A DNA stretch of 64,000 nucleotides from Octopus vulgaris (lineage: Eukaryota). Shown in pieces: positions 834 through 61,288 of the stretch (positions are counted from its first letter, which is position 1; each line of letters begins with the position of its first letter). Where the stretch lies: positions 103,974,001-104,038,000 of the forward strand of contig OX597821.1 of the NCBI GenBank assembly GCA_951406725.2, in the 5' to 3' direction. The position numbers were made by a program, and so were the translations under genes. The notes under the pieces are model-generated. The model saw only the letters and a list, made by a program, of their open reading frames with translations, ran no database searches and was not told the origin of the DNA.

Positions 834-1475
834 GTGGACGCCCGGGAGGAGGTTTTGAATGAGAAACCTGCCCGGGAAGTGAACCCAGGTGCAAGTTCTC
901 CAACCGGCAGCAAGGGCCATGGAGACGCAGAACCCGGTGAAGAGGTAGAGGGAGGAAGAAGAACTAAAAGAAGGACTGGAAGAGCTAAAGGAAAAGAAAA
1001 AGCTCAAGCAGGACCAAAGAGTGAAACAACCAGAAATAGAAGTGGAACCGCAAAGGATGGAACCAAACAGCGCACACGGGTGTGTATGTTCTACCTGAGA
1101 GGTTCCTGCTGGCATGGAAAGGAAGGTGCAGGCTGCCGCTTTGCACATCGGGGACCCTGCCACAGAGACACGAGGCAGATGGACAAACCATCAACACAAA
1201 GAAAAGGGATGGACCACGCACCACCTGCCCCAAAGCGGAGGTACGCAGATGTTGTGCGCGCCACAAACAGCCAACATGATGTTGTCGAAAGAGCAGCTGC
1301 TGAGCAACAATCTTTTTTGTGCATGGCACAAAAGATTGTACAGCAGCTGACCTGGCTTCATCAAACCCAAGCCCGCAGGTGGGACTACCCACTATATACC
1401 AGACCACCACAGCAAACAGACACAGGATGGACACCGCCGGCAACAACGTACACCTCACCTCGATACTCCTACTGA
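834..1475 (+). CDS. LINE ORF1 (probably N-terminally truncated), basic region plus CCCH zinc finger
   Basis: CMFYLRGSCWHGKEGAGCRFAH = C-x7-C-x8-C-x3-H after a Lys/Arg-rich stretch; overlaps the ORF2 frame. Confidence 0.75.
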   Translation: MDAREEVLNEKPAREVNPGASSPTGSKGHGDAEPGEEVEGGRRTKRRTGRAKGKEKAQAGPKSETTRNRSGTAKDGTKQRTRVCMFYLRGSCWHGKEGAGCRFAHRGPCHRDTRQMDKPSTQRKGMDHAPPAPKRRYADVVRATNSQHDVVERAAAEQQSFLCMAQKIVQQLTWLHQTQARRWDYPLYTRPPQQTDTGWTPPATTYTSPRYSY

Positions 1476-4423
1476 ACATCAGAGGACTGCAAACACTCAG
1501 TAACAGGACAAAGATCCCGTTCCTGAGAGACTTTGTTGCATGCAATCAAGCCATATGCATAGCACTTACAGAAACGCACCTGAAACCGGACATAGCAGAT
1601 GCGGAGTTACACATACCACAGTATGCTGTACTACGGACCGACAGGAAAGAAAGGAGTCATGGAGGTGTTGCTATGTACATCCGTGAGGACCTCACACCCC
1701 AGGTCCTCTTGTCATACTCAAACTCGGTGTGTGACACACTAATTGTACATATTAGGCAACTTGATGTAGTTGTGTGTGCTACATATCGCCCTCCAGATGC
1801 CCCAAGCCATGTGGGCAAGTTTGAAGACTGCCTTATAAAAATAGAAGAAATTCTAACCACTTTAGAACAACACATAGGTGTGCTTCTTATGGGAGACTTC
1901 AATCTGCCCAATGTCAGATGGCCCGAGGGCCTTTCTCTCCCAGGAATGACAAGATGTGAACGAGGACAGGCGAGGTCCCTCCTGAACCTCATCAACACCC
2001 TGTACATGGAGCAGGTAATACTCCAACCAACCAGGGCAGGTAACACACTGGATCTCTGCTTCACAAATGACATGGATCTCATCCATAATGTGAAAGTGAC
2101 ACCGACACTACTCTCGGATCACAACATGATAGAGCTGACCATGTACGGGCCAAAAGAGAGCACGGACATGCAGCCTACAAGAAACCCTCAAAATCTTTCC
2201 AGCTTGAACTACCATAAGGCAAACTGGAAACAAATTGAGAAAGAGATCCTCAAACAAAACTGGCCTAAATGTCTCTCCTCGCCAGACATCGACGTGAAAC
2301 TTTAACAATTCATGTCTGTAATGCAAGCCATATGCTACAAATGTGTCCCAGAGAGAAAGGCCACTGTACACAAGAACAAAATCCCCAGAGAGAGGAACAT
2401 TTTAATGAGACGGCGTACGAAATTTTCAAATCGCCTAAACAAACAGATTGAAAGCAGTGAAAAGTCCCGCCTAAAAATAAAACTGTTGGAAATCGAAAAA
2501 TGTCTGCAACTCTCCCATGAAAAAGAAAGAGCAGACAAAGAAGCCTGGGCTATAGAAAACATAAAATCTAACCCCAGAGCTTTCTACAGGTATGCCAAAG
2601 AAACAGCTACAGTGCACTGTAGAATAGGGCCACTCCTCGAAAAGGATGGCACACTTACAGGAAAACCAATGAGGGTAAGTGAAATACTGAATGAGCAATT
2701 CAAGAGTGTTTTCACTCCACCCCTTGGGCATCTCCAAATCACCAATCCAACTGACTTTTTTACCACTGCAGATATAAAATCAGAGGCGGCGACGATAGAT
2801 TACATCGATATAAAGGAAGACGATGTAACCAAGGCTATAGATGAAATGAAAACAGACTCAGCTACTGGCCCCGATGGATTCCCGGCAATCCTCCTAAAAG
2901 CATGTAAGAGAGTCCTAGCAAGACCACTGCAGTTCCTCTTTCAGAGCTTCCTTGCAGCTGGCAAACTTCCAGGAAAACTGAAGGAAGGTAAAATATGCCC
3001 CATTCATAAAGGATGTAGCAGAGCGGAAGCCAAGAACTATAGACCTATCTCTCTGACCTCACACATCAGCAAGGTCATGGAACGAATAGTCAGAAGGAAG
3101 CTGATCACCTTCCTTGAAGAGAATGACTTGCTGCCTGACACCCAACATGGTTTCCGACCAGGGAGAAGCTGTTTAACTCAGCTCCTACAACACTATGACT
3201 GGGTGCTGAAACGGCTGCTCAACCACTCAAATGTGGAACTGATATATCTCGACTTTGCAAAGGCCTTTTATAAAGTCGATCATGGAATGATATGTCACAA
3301 ACTACGTGATCTCAACATAGTTGGAAAACTGGGAGAATGGCTTCATGACTTTCTGAAGGATAGAAGTCAGGTGGTAGTAGCCAATGGGGCCACCTCCATT
3401 AACACACAAATAGTGAGCGGTGTTCCGCAGGGCACTGTTCTGGGACCACTACTGTTCATAATGGCCCTCTCAGACATGCCCTCAGCCACGCAGAGAGCCA
3501 CGATCACAAGTTATGCAGATGATACAAAAGTTTCACAGGCAATACAGAACCCTGAGGACACTAAACACCTGCAATGTGAGCTGGACGAAATATACAAGTG
3601 GGCTGAAAAGAATAGCATGCAGTTCAATGCTGGAAAGTTTCAAGCTTTATACTATCAGCATGCAAAACTGAATGCAATACCCAATGAATACACTGGACCC
3701 GGAGGGATTGCAATCCCAGAGGCACAATCAGTGCGTGACCTGGGTATTCACATGAGTGATGACGCGACCTTTCATGTACATGTTGCTAAACTGACAATGA
3801 AATGTAGACGGCTGGCTGGATGGATTCTTAGAACCTTTAGAACAAGAGAACAAGAAACCATGATGGTCCTCTGGAAGACACTTGTTCTAAGCCACTTTGA
3901 CTATTGCTCTCAGCTATGGTCACCATCCAGTGTCAAGTTGATCACAGAACTTGAGGCGATCCAACGAAGCTACACAAAGAAGATAGCCTCTATGCAGAAT
4001 GTAAGCTACTGGGAAAGACTCAAGAGATTAAAATTATATTCCCTGGAGCGTAGGCGGGAAAGATATGCCATAATATACATCTGGAAGATCCTGGAGGGAA
4101 GTGTCCTGAACTTTGGCATCGAGAGTTACGCAAATGCCAGAACTGGGCGCCACTGCGTGGTGCCTAGGACTCCAAACCTGCCATCAAGATGTAGGACAAG
4201 ATTCTGTGATAGCCTGGGCTTCCGAGGCCCACAGCTCTTCAATATCCTCCCGAAGAACCTGAGAGACCTGCATGGGGTGGATACAGATGTCTTTAAAATG
4301 AAGCTGGATCTCTTCCTGTCAGGTGTCCCAGATGAACCAACTTCACGGCAGGAGGGGCAGATGAGGGCAGCTGCATCGAACTCTCTCATGCACCAAATAG
4401 CAGTTGCTAGAAAGCCTCCATGA
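1427..4423 (+). pseudogene. LINE ORF2 (APE endonuclease + reverse transcriptase) broken by one in-frame stop
   Basis: ORFs 1319-2305 and 2312-4423 share a frame, separated by TAA at 2303-2305. APE motifs NIRGL, LTETHL, YRPP, GDFNLP, LDL, SDHN; RT motifs NYRPISL, QHGFR, GVPQGTVLGP, YADD (3512-3523). KAFD reads KAFY (TAT 3269-3271). Confidence 0.92.
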
Positions 4424-10717: not shown

Positions 10718-12300
10718 AAATATATGTTCAAATGTTCTTCCTTCTCTGGTCAAATCTATAAGCAGTCAGTGGTATTGCTATGGGCACCAGGATGGCCCCC
10801 AATTATGGCAACCCCTTTGTAAATTATGTAAACGAGCAAATCTTTGCTCACTTGTCTGGACCCATCCCAGAACATTATGGTCGTTACATTGACGACTGCA
10901 TTGGCACTACAAGCCTTCACGGACAACAGCTCAACGATTTTATTTCTTTCGTTAACACCTTTCACCCAACATTGGAATCTACCTACATCATATCTGATAT
11001 TTCTCTTTGCTTTCTGGACTCTCCGTCAAAATACACAATACACACTTCTCCACCACTGTCTACTATAAACTTTCAGACTCCAGCTCCTACCTTTACTACT
11101 CGTCCTTTCACCGCAAACACATACAATTTTTGTATACCTTTCTCTCAATTTATTCGCCTTCGATGACTTTGCAGCATCGATTCGGAGTTCGAATTCCATA
11201 GTAAAATGAAGCGACATTTTTTTCTATATCGAGAGTATCCTCCATCAGTTGTCGACCCGCCACTCCACCAAGCCCCAGGCATCAACCGCACCGCAGCTCT
11301 GCTACCATCTTCACGAACTTCCACCAACTGTATTCCACTCTCTCTCACCCACCAACCTTCTAAATCACAAACTCACCCACAACTTTCGTTTCCTTCTTTC
11401 TGACCCAACAACCGTCCCTATCTTTCCCACACCGCATCTTCTGTCTTTTAAAACTGATAGGAGTCTTAGAAATCTCCTTGTCAGAAGGTTACCAGTTCCC
11501 AGCTCTGCACAACCAGGAACTTATAAATGTTCTCGCCGGCAATGTAACACATGTCCCTACATCAACAATATTACCACGATCACGGGGCCCAAGAAGACAA
11601 TAACTCATAACACACCACTTCTGTTACACTGTTCCGAATCTCATATATTGCATCATATGCAAAATCTGCAGTGCTCTTTATATTGGACAAACAGGGCGAC
11701 GCCTTGTGGATCGCTTTCGCGAACTCATTAGTAGCATAATGCTACGTATGCCAGGCCAACCCTTCTCCACGCACTTCAACAGTGTGAATCATTCTATAGC
11801 AGCTTTATCATTGAGTGAGATGGCCTTGCACCACGGAACCCCCTTCTGTAGAAAACGAAAGGAGCAAAGTCTCATATTTGATCTTGGTTCTATGCCCTGA
11901 CAGGTACAAATGAACGTTTTTCCTTTCACCTCCTCTTAGTTATTTCTACCTTTGAAGTCCTCCTTCCACACTCTCTCTGCAACATTCCCGTATTTACTTA
12001 CCTCTATTCTCTCCATCACACCTTTCCTCCTCCTTTCGGCTCGCACTCTCGTATAACTTCTGTTTCATATTAGCAGCCCCTGTTATTCTGCGTCCATTAT
12101 CAGTTTCAGTCAGTTTTTCAAGCTAAGAGGATGTAAACTCTGATTTTCTTCTCTTTGTCTTCTCTCTTTCTCTAACCCCTGACGAAGGGGATAGATTATA
12201 ATTATTAACCAACTTGTCATCTTCTATTGAAAGAACTGAACAGTTGTATAGATGTATACACAATTTTGTCTTCTTTCTTTCTTCCTTCTTTCTTTCCTTC
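10718..12300 (+). mobile_element. Decayed Penelope-like element (RT C-half, thumb, GIY-YIG, 3' pLTR-like region)
   Basis: AMGTRMAPNYGN, YGRYIDDCIG, IPFSQFIRLR, linker CSRRQCNTCP, IYCIICKIC..LYIGQTGRRL.DRFRE, HFN, EQSLIFDLGS across shifted frames. Confidence 0.9.
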
Positions 12301-14245: not shown

Positions 14246-14308
<63 letters not shown>

Positions 14309-15240
14309 TATTAATATATAATCATAATTAGCTAGTAAATGGTGATTTTTTTTAATGAGTTGAATTAAGAAAATGATGGACATAATATCTACTAACTGTG
14401 GAAAAAAACTATATTAATTTAGCACATATCTCAGGAGTCAATAAGATATATTAAGAAGTAATGCAAGGGAGGTAATCATGATGAACCAAATAATTTTCCT
14501 GGATATGTAGAATTTTCTTGTAATTATTTCATATTGATATATCTCTATTTCTATTAATACAGAATCATAATTAGCTAGTAAATGGTGATTTGTTTTATTA
14601 ATGAGTCGAATTAAAACAATACGTTAGACATAATATTTACTACCTGTGGAGAAAATCTTTATCAATTTAGTAAATATATCAGGAGTCAAAAGGATATATT
14701 AAAAACTAATGGAAGGGAGGTAATCAAGATGAACCAACTAATTTCCCTAGATATATAGAATTTTCTTGTAATTATTTCATATTAATATATCTCTTTTTCT
14801 ATTAATACAGAATCATAATTAGCTTGTAAATGGTGATTTGTTTTATTGATGAGTCGAATTAAAACAATATGTTAGACATAATATTTACTACCTGTGGAGA
14901 AAAACTTTATCAAATTAGTAAATATATCAGGAGTGAAAAAGATATATTTTTTCCACAGTTAGTATATATTATGTCCATTATTTTCTTTTAATTCAGCTCA
15001 TTAAAAAAATCACCATTTACTAGCTAATTATGATTATATATTAATAAAAATTGATATATATATATATACATTTATATAAATATGAAATGATTTCTATATT
15101 TTTTATCCCAATATAAGTAACTAATATTTATTGAACTTCTTTAGGAAATTGTCTACAGAATATTTACTTCGATTTCTTAATATGGAATCTGGATGTCAAA
15201 TGGTAAGGGTCATTAAAACATCTAGAGCACTAGCAGTCTA
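14085..15240. repeat. Large fold-back: ~300-bp inverted arms around ~2.5 tandem units of ~245 bp
   Basis: 14085-~14410 is an imperfect reverse complement of ~14945-15240; ATCATAATTAGCT.GTAAATGGTGATTT starts at 14321, 14564 and 14812. Confidence 0.85.
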
Positions 15241-15288: not shown

Positions 15289-15305
15289 GCATTTAATGTA
15301 AAATA

Positions 15306-15711
15306 CCCTCCCCAATGTGGTTAGCCATGATAAGATGGCTTCTATACTTTACATTATCGAGCGATTACTGTTTCAATCTCATTCTGAGATTTAATTATGC
15401 TTACTGTTCGTTTTTCGACATCAGTGGCAGACGTCGTTAGAAAAACTTATATCTATTTGCAAAGGAGCCTTCTCTTTCATCGCTACCTGGTGGTTACCGC
15501 CCGTTGACGAAGGACAACAATCCCGAAACTAGTTCGAGCGTATCACTCAGGCTTGCGAGGAAGGGATGGCCTCCCTTTGCAAATACTCCAAGGACACAGA
15601 TATTGTGTCTAAAGCCAGCTTGAGACGAAGGTCACTTGGGGCTATAAAGCTACAGTAACACCCCCTCCCCAATGTGGTTAGCCATGATAAGATGGCTTCA
15701 ATACTTTACAT
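15306..15711 (+). mobile_element. Retrozyme-like element: 357-nt monomer plus 49-bp terminal redundancy, one hammerhead-like motif (15498-15540)
   Basis: Direct repeat 15306-15354 / 15663-15711; CGCCCG-TTGACGA-A-GGA CAACAA TCC-C-GAAA-CTAG-TT-CGAGCG; colinear with 60541-61206. Confidence 0.7.
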
Positions 15712-16109
15712 AATATACTGAATTCTATATAAATAAATAGTAATAAATTAACAGAACAATTCAAGTTGCTTTTATAGGAAAATATAGACACATATCATGT
15801 TACATTCTAAAAGGCGTGCTCCCAACACGTGACATAGATTTGACTAATTATTGCTGAGTATCGAAGTTCATGACAATTTCAAACTACTTTATCATGTCCA
15901 CTGTCTCATCTTTGTAAATGTTTGCAAATGAACAGAATGGATCTTCTTCATTCTGTAAAGTCTAGTTCTATCTATCAGTTCACGGAAATTTATTAAGATT
16001 AACCGCCACAGGCACTTCCGGTGATTTACTTTGCTTGGAAAATTAGATTAGTTTTCGCTGTTACACTGATAAGAGTAATTGCATTATGGCTCTTTATAAT
16101 TGTCTAGAC

Positions 16110-42057: not shown

Positions 42058-42569
42058 TAAAAAGAAGGTCGAAAGAAAGGGAGATAATAATAAAAAAGAG
42101 GTTGAATGAAAGTGAGATAATAAAGTGGTAGTGACCCCAACAAGTGGAGTTGCTCGTGGGGGGTGGGTGTATGTCAGAATGGTAGATGGGTGTGTGTACG
42201 TGTGTGTGTGTGAATAGGGGCGAGTGACTCTGACGTGTGTGCGTGTATGTGCTGTGTGTAGTTCTTGATGTGTGATTTTTACGTGGCGTGAGTGTGTCTG
42301 TGACCAAACAGTGTGCATGTGTATGGGGTATGTATATGGACGAAAGTTATCTCTGTCTATGTATGCTGCGTATGTTACTGCGTGTTACGTGTGTATGTAT
42401 ATATTGCCCGTGCTCAAGTATTATGTGCTTCCATGGGTGTGGGATTGTGCACGATGGTGTGTGGTCTGTGTACTGAGTTAAGCAATAAGGAGACGGTATT
42501 GATGATGGTGTGTGGAGTGAGTGCTGGGAAGTGGTCAGTGCTAGTGTGTGTGGAGTGGTGTGGCTTGGT

Positions 42570-43290
42570 ATGAGAAAAAAGGAGGGACATGAGGTTGATG
42601 TCAGATGAAGGGAGGAGGTGAGTTGAGCCCATGTGGCGTAAAGAGCGAAGAGAAAAGATTAATAACTGTTCACGGCAAAGGTGGGAGACAATATTGCCCC
42701 TGTGCAAAAATAATCCGATCACATATAGATGTTGTAGCGATTGACCGATAGAGCGAAAATGGCGAGAGACAGGGTTTTCCTTGCCGAGCCTGAGGTCTCG
42801 GAGATGCTCCGCGAACCGGTGAGTCAGGCGGCGTCCCTGAAGGACAGGAAGGGCAGGAGATGCATTAAATGTTATTACTAGATGTTCAGGTAAAGGAGTC
42901 GGTGATGTGATAGGGACAACGATTGATGCCTGTGAGGATGGTGATATGGGACTGGTAGGGGCAAGTGCGACACCGTGGGCGGAATCAGGGGAATGATTCA
43001 CGCTGGGAGGTGGGGATAGGGAAGAAGCTGCGGACCAGGAGGTTACGCAGGTTCTGGACTCGTTTGAAGGAGGGAAGTGGTAGGTTGGGAAGGATGTGCC
43101 AGGTGAAGGGGCCGGACTGGAGTCGCCAGAAAGCTCGGAGAATGGTGCGTTGGAGAGGCAGAGTAGAGGGGTGGTTGGTGAGGGGAAACATTAGTTGGTT
43201 AATGGCAGGTCGGGTGCGAGGAGAAAAAATAGAGGCACGGTTCACAGATTTTGATCCGGCAAGAGTAGTGTGGTTAGTGGTGAGGGGATA
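42570..43290 (-). mobile_element. Decayed Penelope-like element 3' fragment (linker + GIY-YIG)
   Basis: PLPSFKRVQNLRNLLVRS, GRRLTHRFAEHLRDLR..PVSRHF..REQLLIFSLRSL, paralleling the motifs at 11450-11900. Confidence 0.8.
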
Positions 43291-43855
43291 CCTATGTTCT
43301 GAGTTCAAATTCCGCCGAGGTTGACTTTGCCTTTCATCCTTTCGGGGTCGATAAATTAAGTACCAGTTACGCACTGGGGTCGATGTAATCGACTCAATCC
43401 GTTTGTTTGTCCTTGTTTGTCCCCTCTGTGTTTAGCCCCTTGTGGGTAGTAAAGAAATAGGTATTTCGTGTGCCGTTACGTTGCGAGTTGAAATTCCGCC
43501 GAGGTCGAATTTGCCTTTCATCCTTCCGAGGGCTATAAATTAAGTATTAGTTACGTACTGAGGCCGATCTAATGGGCCCCTCTCCTAAAATTTCGGGCCT
43601 TGTGCCTAGAGTAGAAAAGAATATTTTGCAGGATTTTAAAGCGGCGAGCTGGCAGAAACGTCAGTACGCTGGGCGAAATACTTATCGGTATTTCGTCTGC
43701 CGTTACGTTCTGAGTTCAAATTCCGCCGAGGTCGACTTTGCCTTTCATCCTTTCGAGGTCAATAAATTAAGTACCAGTTGCGTACTGGGGTCGATCTAAT
43801 CGACTGGCCCCCTCCCCAAAAGGTTTGTGCCTTGTTCCTAGAGTAGAAAAGAGTA
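43291..43855 (+). mobile_element. Two adjacent SINE family C copies (truncated dimer 43291-43622; monomer 43638-43855)
   Basis: Three copies of the GAGTTCAAATTCCGCCGAGGTCGACTTTGCCTTTCATCC core; two CCTAGAGTAGAAAAGA tails; head AAGCGGCGAGCTGGCAGAAACG at ~43639. Confidence 0.88.
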
Positions 43856-52993: not shown

Positions 52994-52995
<2 letters not shown>

Positions 52996-53184
52996 CTGCA
53001 CGCATTTTTTTCTCTCCTTCTTTCTGTGTTTTTCTCTCTCTGTGTATCTTTCTGTTGAAGAGCGTAGGCTCGAAACGTTAAAGACTTGTTTTATTTATAT
53101 TTCCTGAGCGCCATACTAATACAATTGTTCGTTTGTTTTCCACCTGCCTTCGTCTTTTGTTTATTTTCATAAAGCTTCCCGTTA
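52994..53184 (+). mobile_element. Short element in (TA)n with a hammerhead-variant motif (53047-53084)
   Basis: TCTTT-CTGTTGA-A-GAGC GTAG GCTC-GAAA-CG-TT-AAAGA; second copy inverted at 55454-55640. Confidence 0.7.
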
Positions 53185-53263
53185 TATATATATAGATAGG
53201 TATATAATATACATATATATATACATACATATATATATATATGTATACAAACACACACACGTA

Positions 53264-55455: not shown

Positions 55456-55640
55456 AGAATTCACAAAAAGCAAAAAACGAAGACAGGTGGTGCAGACACC
55501 AGATGTGTTAGTATAACGCTCGGGAAGTTAAAAAAGTCTTTAACGTTTCGAGCCTACGCTCTTACACAGAAAGGAACACAGAAAAAACAAGGAGAGAAAA
55601 TAAAGAATGTGTAGTGGCTAGCGATCTATCATGGCACACA
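55454..55640 (-). mobile_element. Diverged copy of the 52994-53184 element
   Basis: GTCTTTAACGTTTCGAGCCTACGCTCTT is the exact reverse complement of 53058-53085; flanks more diverged. Confidence 0.75.
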
Positions 55641-60473: not shown

Positions 60474-60539
<66 letters not shown>

Positions 60540-60540
60540 A

Positions 60541-61206
60541 TGATGCATATTTGCCATTTGAATATGGCTAACCCATAAGGGTGGATGCTACTGTAGTTTG
60601 TAGCCCCAGGAAGATATCTCCTCTCGCTGGCTATAGACACACTATCTGTGTCCTCTCAGTACTTGTGAAGGGGAGTCATCCTCCCCGTCTTCAACACATG
60701 ATACACACGTACCCGAGTTTCAAGGTGTTTACCTTTCATTAGCGTGTGACAATCATGGTTGTCGATGAGAAGTCAGATCCCTTCACAAATACATATACTT
60801 TTTCCAGTGTCAATTTGACACTTATATAGAAAAAGTGAAATCAAACAATGATAAATCTCAGAGCGAGTTATAAACAGTAGCGGTAACACATCGTGATGCA
60901 TATTTGCCATTTGAAGGAATCTGACTTCTCATCGACAACCATGATTGTCACACGCTGATGAAAGGTAAACACCTTGAAACTCGGGTACGCGTGTATCATG
61001 TGTTGAAGACGGGGAGGATGACTCCCCTTCACAAATACAGAGAGGACACAGATAGTGTGTCTATAGCCAGCGGGAGGAGATATCTTCCTGGGGCTACAAA
61101 CTACAGTAGCATCCACCCTTATGGGTTAGCCATATTCAAATGGCAAATATGCATCACGATGTGTTACCGCTACTGTTTATAACTCGCTCTGAGATTTATC
61201 ATTGTT
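60541..61206. mobile_element. Retrozyme-like element in fold-back arrangement: 353-nt terminally redundant monomer (minus) joined to an inverted partial copy (plus)
   Basis: Near-perfect arms 60541-60785 / 60912-61156; 60844-60915 is the inverse of 61135-61206; TGATGCATATTTGCCATTTGAA at 60541 and 60894; (TA)n flanks. Confidence 0.85.
60949..60993 (+). ncRNA. Minimal type I hammerhead ribozyme with complete core
   Basis: CACACG-CTGATGA-AAGGT AAAC ACCTT-GAAA-CTCGGG-TA^CGCGTG; predicted cut after 60987. The mirror copy (60704-60748, minus) has a perfect helix I but CTAATGA. Confidence 0.85.
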
Positions 61207-61236
61207 ATGTATATATATATATATATGTGTATATTA

Positions 61237-61288
<52 letters not shown>

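What the first reader, a model, noticed from the sequence alone, without database searches (positions are those of the whole stretch)
60541..61206. Retrozyme-like family: 353-nt monomer, intact hammerhead and covarying helices shared with 15306-15711
Seen: the minus strand 60915 to 60541 is a 353-nt monomer plus 22-nt redundancy, fused to an inverted partial copy. It is colinear around the whole unit with the 357-nt monomer at 15306 (TACTGTTT..TCTGAGATTT; GAAAAA.TATAT.TATTTG..AAGG; TCATCG; hammerhead; GGACACAGATA.TGTGTCTA.AGCCAGC; TGGGGCTA.AAA; GGTTAGCCAT). Pairing survives sequence change: enclosing helix TATTTGTGAAGG/CCTTCACAAATA vs TATTTGCAAAGG/CCTTTGCAAATA; helix I CACACG/CGTGTG vs CGCCCG/CGAGCG; helix II AAGGT/ACCTT vs GGA/TCC; helix III ACTCGGGT vs ACTAGT. 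The copy at 60949-60993 has every core nucleotide. Inference: a structured, non-coding, self-cleaving ~355-nt RNA copied from circular or tandem templates into (TA)n, probably by Penelope enzymes. This is the best candidate here for an undescribed system.
Basis: partly seen in the sequence, partly recalled or inferred. Interest (0 to 1): 0.88.

Follow-up and report, generated by a model that had tools for sequence, protein, structure and literature searches.

The report
Penelope-copied hammerhead retrozyme family
This is one decayed copy of a family of small protein-free jumping repeats, thousands strong in this animal genome, that carry a predicted self-cutting RNA; the shape of their insertions matches that of a Penelope-type retrotransposon in the same genome, which likely copies them, so it is a new member of a known kind (animal retrozymes).

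Summary
60537-61206 is a two-armed insertion of a 353-nt non-coding unit with a type I hammerhead; 15298-15714 is a 357-nt sister subfamily, about 65% identical round the whole unit. A shared motif has 4,694 exact genome hits (control 1); ten sequence clusters keep one predicted fold with compensatory changes. Corrections: neither window arm is perfect (minus core G5A; plus helix I mismatch), and the 22-nt redundancy is random 5' truncation. In 106 loci, 152 of 164 arms end at one of two fixed points 42-46 nt apart, mostly in (TA)n, and 43 of 51 back-to-back pairs use one of each. An intact Penelope-like family in this genome shows the same footprint, but the unit is not the pLTR of the PLE families checked. 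Most arms read through the predicted cut, and both arms share private variants, which fits one re-ligated circle or an uncut multimer as template. Cleavage, circles and the partner enzyme are untested. It is a new member of the animal non-LTR retrozymes, not an undescribed system. This scan already reported sister families on other DNA of this genome.

The parts
60537..60915 (-). Arm 1: about 1.07 units, 5'-truncated, ending at the family's short fixed 3' end
60912..61206 (+). Arm 2: 295 nt, 5'-truncated, ending at the long fixed 3' end
60912..60915 (.). 4-nt microhomology at the back-to-back junction of the two arms
   Evidence: sequence; junction overlaps across the family
61161..61206 (+). 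46-nt tail between the short and the long fixed end, present on this arm's end only
60949..60993 (+). Type I hammerhead, complete core, predicted cut after 60987; private helix I mismatch at 60990
60704..60748 (-). Second hammerhead copy, perfect helix I, private core change G5A at 60740 (predicted inactive)
60780..60793 (-). 5' strand of the central helix that separates the hammerhead domain from the ~235-nt second domain
61025..61038 (+). 3' strand of the central helix (plus arm)
60474..60536 (.). (TA)n target, left
61207..61285 (.). (TA)n target, right
15298..15714 (+). Sister subfamily B: single 417-nt arm of a 357-nt unit, ending at the homologous short fixed end
15498..15540 (+). Subfamily B hammerhead variant (U3 core, palindromic helix III, predicted cut after 15534); private change at 15511

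Best explanation
The unit is a non-coding, hammerhead-bearing repeat dispersed in thousands of two-armed, 5'-truncated copies, and it is likely a non-autonomous retroelement (animal non-LTR retrozyme) whose RNA is likely copied into (TA)n by the enzyme of an intact Penelope-like element. Shown: unit, copy anatomy, fixed ends, conserved predicted fold, and the same footprint in an intact PLE family. Inferred: a tandem copy is transcribed; the hammerhead cuts it to unit length; the long helix I holds the ends together for ligation to a ~355-nt circle; a PLE GIY-YIG endonuclease opens (TA)n; the two DNA 3' ends each anneal by about 2-4 nt to one of two fixed AU-containing sites 42-46 nt apart on the same RNA; the RT copies round the template and stops at variable points; the two cDNAs are joined back to back by microhomology. 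The best partner candidates are the AT-rich 781-aa family (L132) and its relative (L143), not the 884-aa family (L087). The window copy is a passively decaying insertion.
For: Two fixed 3' ends in 152 of 164 arms from 106 loci; 43 of 51 back-to-back pairs have one short and one long end, none has two of the same; a TA run follows 112 of 154 fixed ends (107 loci). The intact 781-aa RT+GIY-YIG family has the same build: 5 of 5 two-armed loci with one short and one long end about 40 nt apart, in (TA)n. This is the PLE anatomy described in PMC8557442. Target-like bases replace template bases at the short end: in family A 7 of 12 terminal copies lack the G at -3 that 42 of 43 internal passes have. 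125 of 164 arms run through the predicted cut site, 11 twice; 47 of 72 in the motif-selected set. Opposite arms of one locus share rare variants 1.8-3.0 per 1000 sites against 0.16-0.22 between loci, and share minor marker alleles in 27 of 35 and 10 of 12 cells against about 15%. Circular folds have z -8.5 (A) and -4.8 (B); 22 of 101 consensus pairs change on both sides. Hammerhead domain in 13 copies: 89% paired, 9 pairs with double changes, slid controls 31-50%; the core 3-8 pair occurs as C-G, U-G and U-A. Longest ATG ORF on any of ten circles is 72 aa.
Against: No cleavage, circle or transcript was shown. No sequence similarity links the unit to any PLE end tested (best z 2.9 of 60 comparisons), so the partner is assigned by footprint alone, and tail lengths differ (about 31, 40 and 42-46 nt). 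Arrays are short (longest arm 896 nt in loci up to 3.6 kb), unlike the long retrozyme tandems of coral or axolotl. Shared variants and read-through are equally explained by an uncut, homogeneous multimer transcript. Several subfamilies have non-canonical cores (U3, C4, A8), which may cut slowly; 8 of 9 Xenopus retrozyme dimers did not cleave in vitro. Two of ten medoids fold weakly (z -0.5, -2.2). Covariation counts are not corrected for relatedness.
Confidence: 0.72

Rival explanations
1. Same PLE mobilisation, but the template is a linear, uncut tandem transcript; the hammerhead is slow or incidental and no circle is needed.
For: Autonomous PLEs here make the same partial tandems from 4.7- and 6.2-kb units; read-through of the cut site; variant cores fixed in several subfamilies.
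Against: Subfamily A keeps a canonical core in essentially all of 30 loci with votes; the hammerhead fold covaries across subfamilies; about 355 nt is kept by nine of ten clusters; a linear source would need a longer homogeneous array than any seen. A small excess of 5' ends at the cut (9 within 3 nt against 3.3 expected) hints that some templates were cut.
Confidence: 0.15
2. The unit is the pLTR (3' end) of an autonomous PLE that I did not sample, and most copies are its 5'-truncated insertions.
For: Identical insertion anatomy; in Xenopus 24 of 57 retrozyme families matched catalogued TEs, 21 of the 22 being PLEs, at their termini. Only the best 40-150 of thousands of candidates were scored per search.
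Against: 73 of 166 arms exceed one unit and wrap back into the unit rather than into an ORF. 5' flanks of 53 single-arm loci share nothing contiguous except one pair with a common host repeat beyond a TA run. Where unit and PLE are neighbours (L097, L136, L143) a TA run or unrelated DNA separates them. PLE ends checked are unrelated in sequence.
Confidence: 0.08
3. The copies are endogenised pieces of an independently replicating viroid-like circular RNA, or a DNA-level satellite or foldback repeat.
For: Viroid-like size, branched fold with about 63% pairing, hammerhead.
Against: Hammerhead on one strand only; thousands of copies in graded subfamilies of 65-91% identity; fixed sense-strand 3' ends and target-derived terminal bases are signatures of target-primed reverse transcription.
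Confidence: 0.05

Closest known systems
Metazoan non-LTR retrozymes (Cervera and de la Pena 2020, PMC7229834; seen: abstract start, passages, section 14; mussel units 350-390 bp)
   Same: Non-coding 150-450-bp unit, GC under 50% (41-44% here), canonical type I hammerhead, tandem copies, highly self-paired predicted circle, thousands of copies, PLEs in the same genome.
   Different: Here copies are mostly 0.3-2.5 units, dispersed and often back to back, with two fixed ends in (TA)n; the searched passages give no such anatomy ('inverted' and 'microsatellite' 0 hits). Cleavage and circles were shown there and are untested here.
Vertebrate retrozymes as non-autonomous PLEs (Li, Clavereau and Pollet 2026, bioRxiv 10.64898/2026.07.22.740005; seen: parts 1-3 of 5, abstract to discussion; supplements closed)
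   Same: Same conclusion: retrozymes use PLE machinery; monomers dispersed over chromosomes.
   Different: Their evidence is co-occurrence and pLTR homology in Xenopus. Here no pLTR homology was found; the link is the insertion footprint. Their pipeline needs at least two full tandem units, which most of these loci lack.
EN+ Penelope-like elements (Craig et al. 2021, PMC8557442; seen: abstract and passages)
   Same: 5' truncation, partial tandems, adjacent inverted 5'-truncated copy, tail at one end only, (TA)n preference, type I hammerhead.
   Different: No ORF; unit 355 nt instead of several kb; tail 42-46 nt against the 30-40 bp described; full-size hammerhead with long helix I instead of the minimal PLE form.

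Membership tests
Animal non-LTR retrozyme | Small (about 150-450 bp) non-coding repeat unit, low GC | tested here: met
   352-358 nt in nine of ten clusters, GC 0.41-0.44, longest circular ORF 72 aa
Animal non-LTR retrozyme | Type I hammerhead in each unit | tested here: met
   Canonical core in subfamily A; covariation; Hammerhead_1 32.2 bits in a sister subfamily, just under the cut-off of 34; variant cores elsewhere
Animal non-LTR retrozyme | Head-to-tail tandem copies (dimers to multimers) | tested here: met
   73 of 166 arms exceed one unit, 10 exceed two; longest 896 nt. No long arrays seen in the sample
Animal non-LTR retrozyme | No LTR, PBS or PPT | tested here: inconclusive
   The terminal redundancy is variable truncation, not an LTR; PBS and PPT were not searched for
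Animal non-LTR retrozyme | Self-cleavage in vitro | not testable with these tools
   Prediction only
Animal non-LTR retrozyme | Accumulates as circular RNA | tested here: inconclusive
   Only contigs of runs guessed to be RNA were available; wrap-around joints also occur in runs of unknown kind and in genomic tandems
EN+ Penelope-like element (autonomous) | RT plus GIY-YIG ORF | tested here: not met
   No ORF in or contiguous with the unit
EN+ Penelope-like element (autonomous) | Partial tandems, inverted 5'-truncated copy, one-sided tail, (TA)n target | tested here: met
pLTR of a resident PLE | Sequence homology to the 3' end of an ORF-bearing PLE | tested here: not met
   Five PLE ends by local alignment with shuffles and ORF-selected loci by blastn; sampling of PLE families is incomplete

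The most novel reading that the evidence does not exclude
The ~235-nt second domain is a conserved, covarying RNA module that docks a Penelope RT without sequence homology to its element and presents two fixed, telomerase-like short priming sites on one circle, so that both ends of a cut in (TA)n copy the same molecule. The family would then be a mimic of PLE RNA rather than a pLTR derivative, and a minimal natural substrate for reconstituting PLE retrotransposition.
Probability: 0.3. Interest if true: 0.72.

Novelty: new member of a known kind. Interest (0 to 1): 0.42.

Why it matters
PLE mobilisation of animal retrozymes has rested on co-occurrence and pLTR similarity. Here many copies record the reaction itself: two fixed priming sites, target bases left at the ends, both arms from one haplotype, and the same footprint in an intact PLE family. 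PMC8557442 names an in vitro PLE system as the next task; a 355-nt RNA with mapped priming sites and ten natural sequence variants is a practical template for it. It also suggests that several thousand short structured, ribozyme-bearing insertions in this genome may be missed or left unclassified by searches that need full tandems. The class itself is known, and this scan has reported sister families in the same genome.

Tried and rejected
Rfam at gathering score on the window: 0 matches; E-value mode on five loci gave only sub-threshold hammerhead hits and microsatellite artefacts, nothing for the second domain. RNA evidence: no RNA holder listed; contigs of four runs guessed to be RNA cover the unit and three or four show wrap-around joints, but so do three of four runs of unknown kind, so this says nothing on expression or circles. 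Unit as pLTR: apparent neighbours L097, L136, L143, L033, L034 are separate insertions. The 884-aa PLE family as partner: one 3' end and no inverted arm within 1.5 kb in two overlapping sets of 30 loci; longer inverted arms would be missed. A search with a third PLE end (window 52994-53185) returned nothing, which shows nothing. A small hairpin before the long end looks alike in the unit and the 781-aa family, but alignment was not above shuffles. A 119-bp array of the priming module (L315) looked like a mini-circle but includes target (TA)n in each unit, so it is a later DNA duplication. A loose-end variant led to 13 older copies of the same unit, not to an autonomous element. RNA editing fixed in copies: shared rare variants show no A>G excess (2 of 7 and 2 of 9). 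Excess of 5' ends at the cut site is weak and post hoc, and several of those junctions are ambiguous. Literature: 'octopus' with 'hammerhead ribozyme' gave 4 listed papers, none on this; searches gave no paper on this family; PMC13282606 has no 'ribozyme' or 'retrozyme' in its main text. Repeat libraries (Repbase, Dfam) and supplements were not seen and may already hold the unit. A look-up of earlier notes by sequence found nothing.

Full report
Observation. The minus strand 60915-60541 has a 353-nt period with a 22-nt exact repeat and abuts an inverted partial copy ending at 61206, between (TA)n runs. The 357-nt unit at 15306 aligns round the whole circle (score 309; shuffles 130 +/- 7), at about 65% identity between the subfamilies. 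The plus hammerhead has a full core with a predicted cut after 60987. Against the family, each window arm carries a private lesion: G5A in the minus core and a helix I mismatch in the plus arm.

Family. Searches of the own genome (2.8 Gb; the window is G000:C8:103974001-104038000) gave 2,220 and 1,741 first-look candidates for units A and B, of which 40 each were scored, at 93-100% identity. A motif from the central helix has 4,694 exact hits against 1 for the control; a second motif has 5,325 against 0. Eighty-three full monomers cut from fetched loci fall into ten clusters of 65-91% identity and 342-358 nt. Contigs under several organism labels also hold the unit.

Structure. Folded as circles, eight of ten real medoid copies have z between -3.3 and -8.5, two are weak (-0.5 for a deleted copy, -2.2). 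The consensus fold has 101 pairs, 22 with changes on both sides, half of them outside the hammerhead domain. A central helix separates a hammerhead domain with a long interrupted helix I from a branched ~235-nt domain that holds both fixed ends. In 13 hammerhead domains 89% of cells pair, 9 of 27 pairs change on both sides, and slid controls fall to 31-50%; the tertiary 3-8 pair occurs as C-G (8), U-G (2) and U-A (2). Relatedness is not corrected for. No circle has an ATG ORF over 72 aa.

Insertion anatomy. After dropping overlapping and duplicated loci (L015, L028, L046, L048, L159, L165, L177, L180), 106 loci gave 164 arms. 77 end at a short and 75 at a long 3' point, 42-46 nt apart and homologous in all subfamilies; 12 end elsewhere. 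Of 51 back-to-back pairs, 43 have one end of each kind, 8 include an odd end, none has two alike. 5' ends scatter, junctions mostly overlap by 0-5 nt, and TA runs follow 112 of 154 fixed ends (which still counted L180). The A and B sets are best hits and so biased to long arms; the motif-selected set shows the same pattern. At the short end the last template bases are often replaced by target-like ones, which by established TPRT logic points to priming on a few paired bases (inference). The window locus is a textbook case: short end at 60537, long end at 61206, 4-nt junction microhomology.

Template. 125 of 164 arms read through the predicted cut, 11 twice; 47 of 72 in the motif-selected set and 11 of 44 in a set chosen on the end module. 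A cut linear monomer cannot be the main template. Opposite arms and successive passes of one locus share rare variants about ten times more often than different loci and agree at marker sites, so both arms come from one haplotype. That fits one re-ligated circle, or an uncut homogeneous multimer; the data cannot separate them. A slight excess of 5' ends at the cut is only a hint.

Who copies it. A PLE RT remnant in the window and the GIY-YIG family led to intact RT+GIY-YIG families: an 884-aa family in 6.2-kb tandems and a 781-aa family in 4.7-kb tandems, both with near-identical copies and (TA)n targets, plus relatives. The 781-aa family has two fixed ends about 40 nt apart, one per arm in 5 of 5 two-armed loci (three of them picked because they showed opposite-strand pairs); its relative L143 has a tail of about 31 nt. 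The 884-aa family showed one end and no nearby inverted arm. None of the PLE ends resembles the unit in sequence, no unit continues into an ORF, and 5' flanks of 53 single-arm loci share no contiguous sequence. I did not assign the PLE families to named clades by a tree.

Comparison with what is known. Size, GC, type I hammerhead, tandem habit and co-occurring PLEs match animal non-LTR retrozymes, for which circles and a PLE-driven cycle were shown and proposed respectively (PMC7229834). A 2026 preprint argues that they are non-autonomous PLE derivatives from pLTR homology. Partial tandems, inverted truncated copies, a one-sided 30-40-bp tail and (TA)n bias are described PLE traits (PMC8557442). 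It works like a PLE passenger and meets the sequence-level tests for a retrozyme; the biochemical ones are open. My searches found no paper on this family, but repeat libraries and supplements were not seen. Earlier notes of this scan describe sister families in this genome with the same reading; I had the two-end anatomy before reading them, and took from one the idea of testing for a single template.

Verdict. Real, well supported, and ordinary in kind: a new member of the animal retrozymes with unusually clear genomic evidence of PLE copying. Interest 0.42; the bolder reading, a structure-only docking and twin-priming module on a circle, has about 0.3 probability.

Noticed in passing
window 10762-11731 (+) and 42414-43431 (-): Broken Penelope-like RT/GIY-YIG remnants; the first was used as the query that found intact families.
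   Followed up: partly
window 52994-53185 (+), weaker at 55465-55635 (-): 5'-truncated 3' end of a PLE family (99% to L094) with a minimal hammerhead, inserted in (TA)n.
   Followed up: partly
window 1304-4423 (+): Nearly intact LINE: APE endonuclease and RT frames separated by one stop codon.
   Followed up: no
window 14304-14948: 248-bp tandem repeat, 2.6 copies, 89% matches, 350 nt upstream of the B copy.
   Followed up: no
L086-L088 (G000:C10:97804800-97825140): Young PLE in 3.3 direct 6.2-kb tandems at over 99% identity, with a proline-rich N-terminus, about 2 kb of CA-rich sequence after the ORF and a minimal hammerhead with a fixed C4 core.
   Followed up: partly
L132:4830-4880 and L143:4500-4550: By eye, the 781-aa family and its relative carry variant minimal hammerheads with palindromic helix III (U3-A8 core in one, C4 core in the other); the same core variants occur in retrozyme subfamilies.
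   Followed up: no
L148:4790-4970, L091:9560-9600 (-), L097:1947: Another short (~200 nt) TA-flanked repeat with its own hammerhead and long helix I, seen in three or more unrelated loci.
   Followed up: no
L088:2218-2452 and L148:9060-9130: Further unrelated hammerhead-bearing fragments with canonical core and palindromic helix III.
   Followed up: no
L315:1079-2030: 119-bp array, seven copies, of a unit's 3' end together with target (TA)n; likely a later DNA duplication.
   Followed up: yes
L323-L335: Older copies of the unit (79-90% to the medoids) end at the same short point but mostly in T-rich, non-(TA)n DNA; the search pattern itself required a T-rich end.
   Followed up: partly
L180 and L185 (G000:C1:21.14 Mb and 22.18 Mb): The same insertion lies in an inverted segmental duplicate, 97.6% over 2 kb.
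   Followed up: yes
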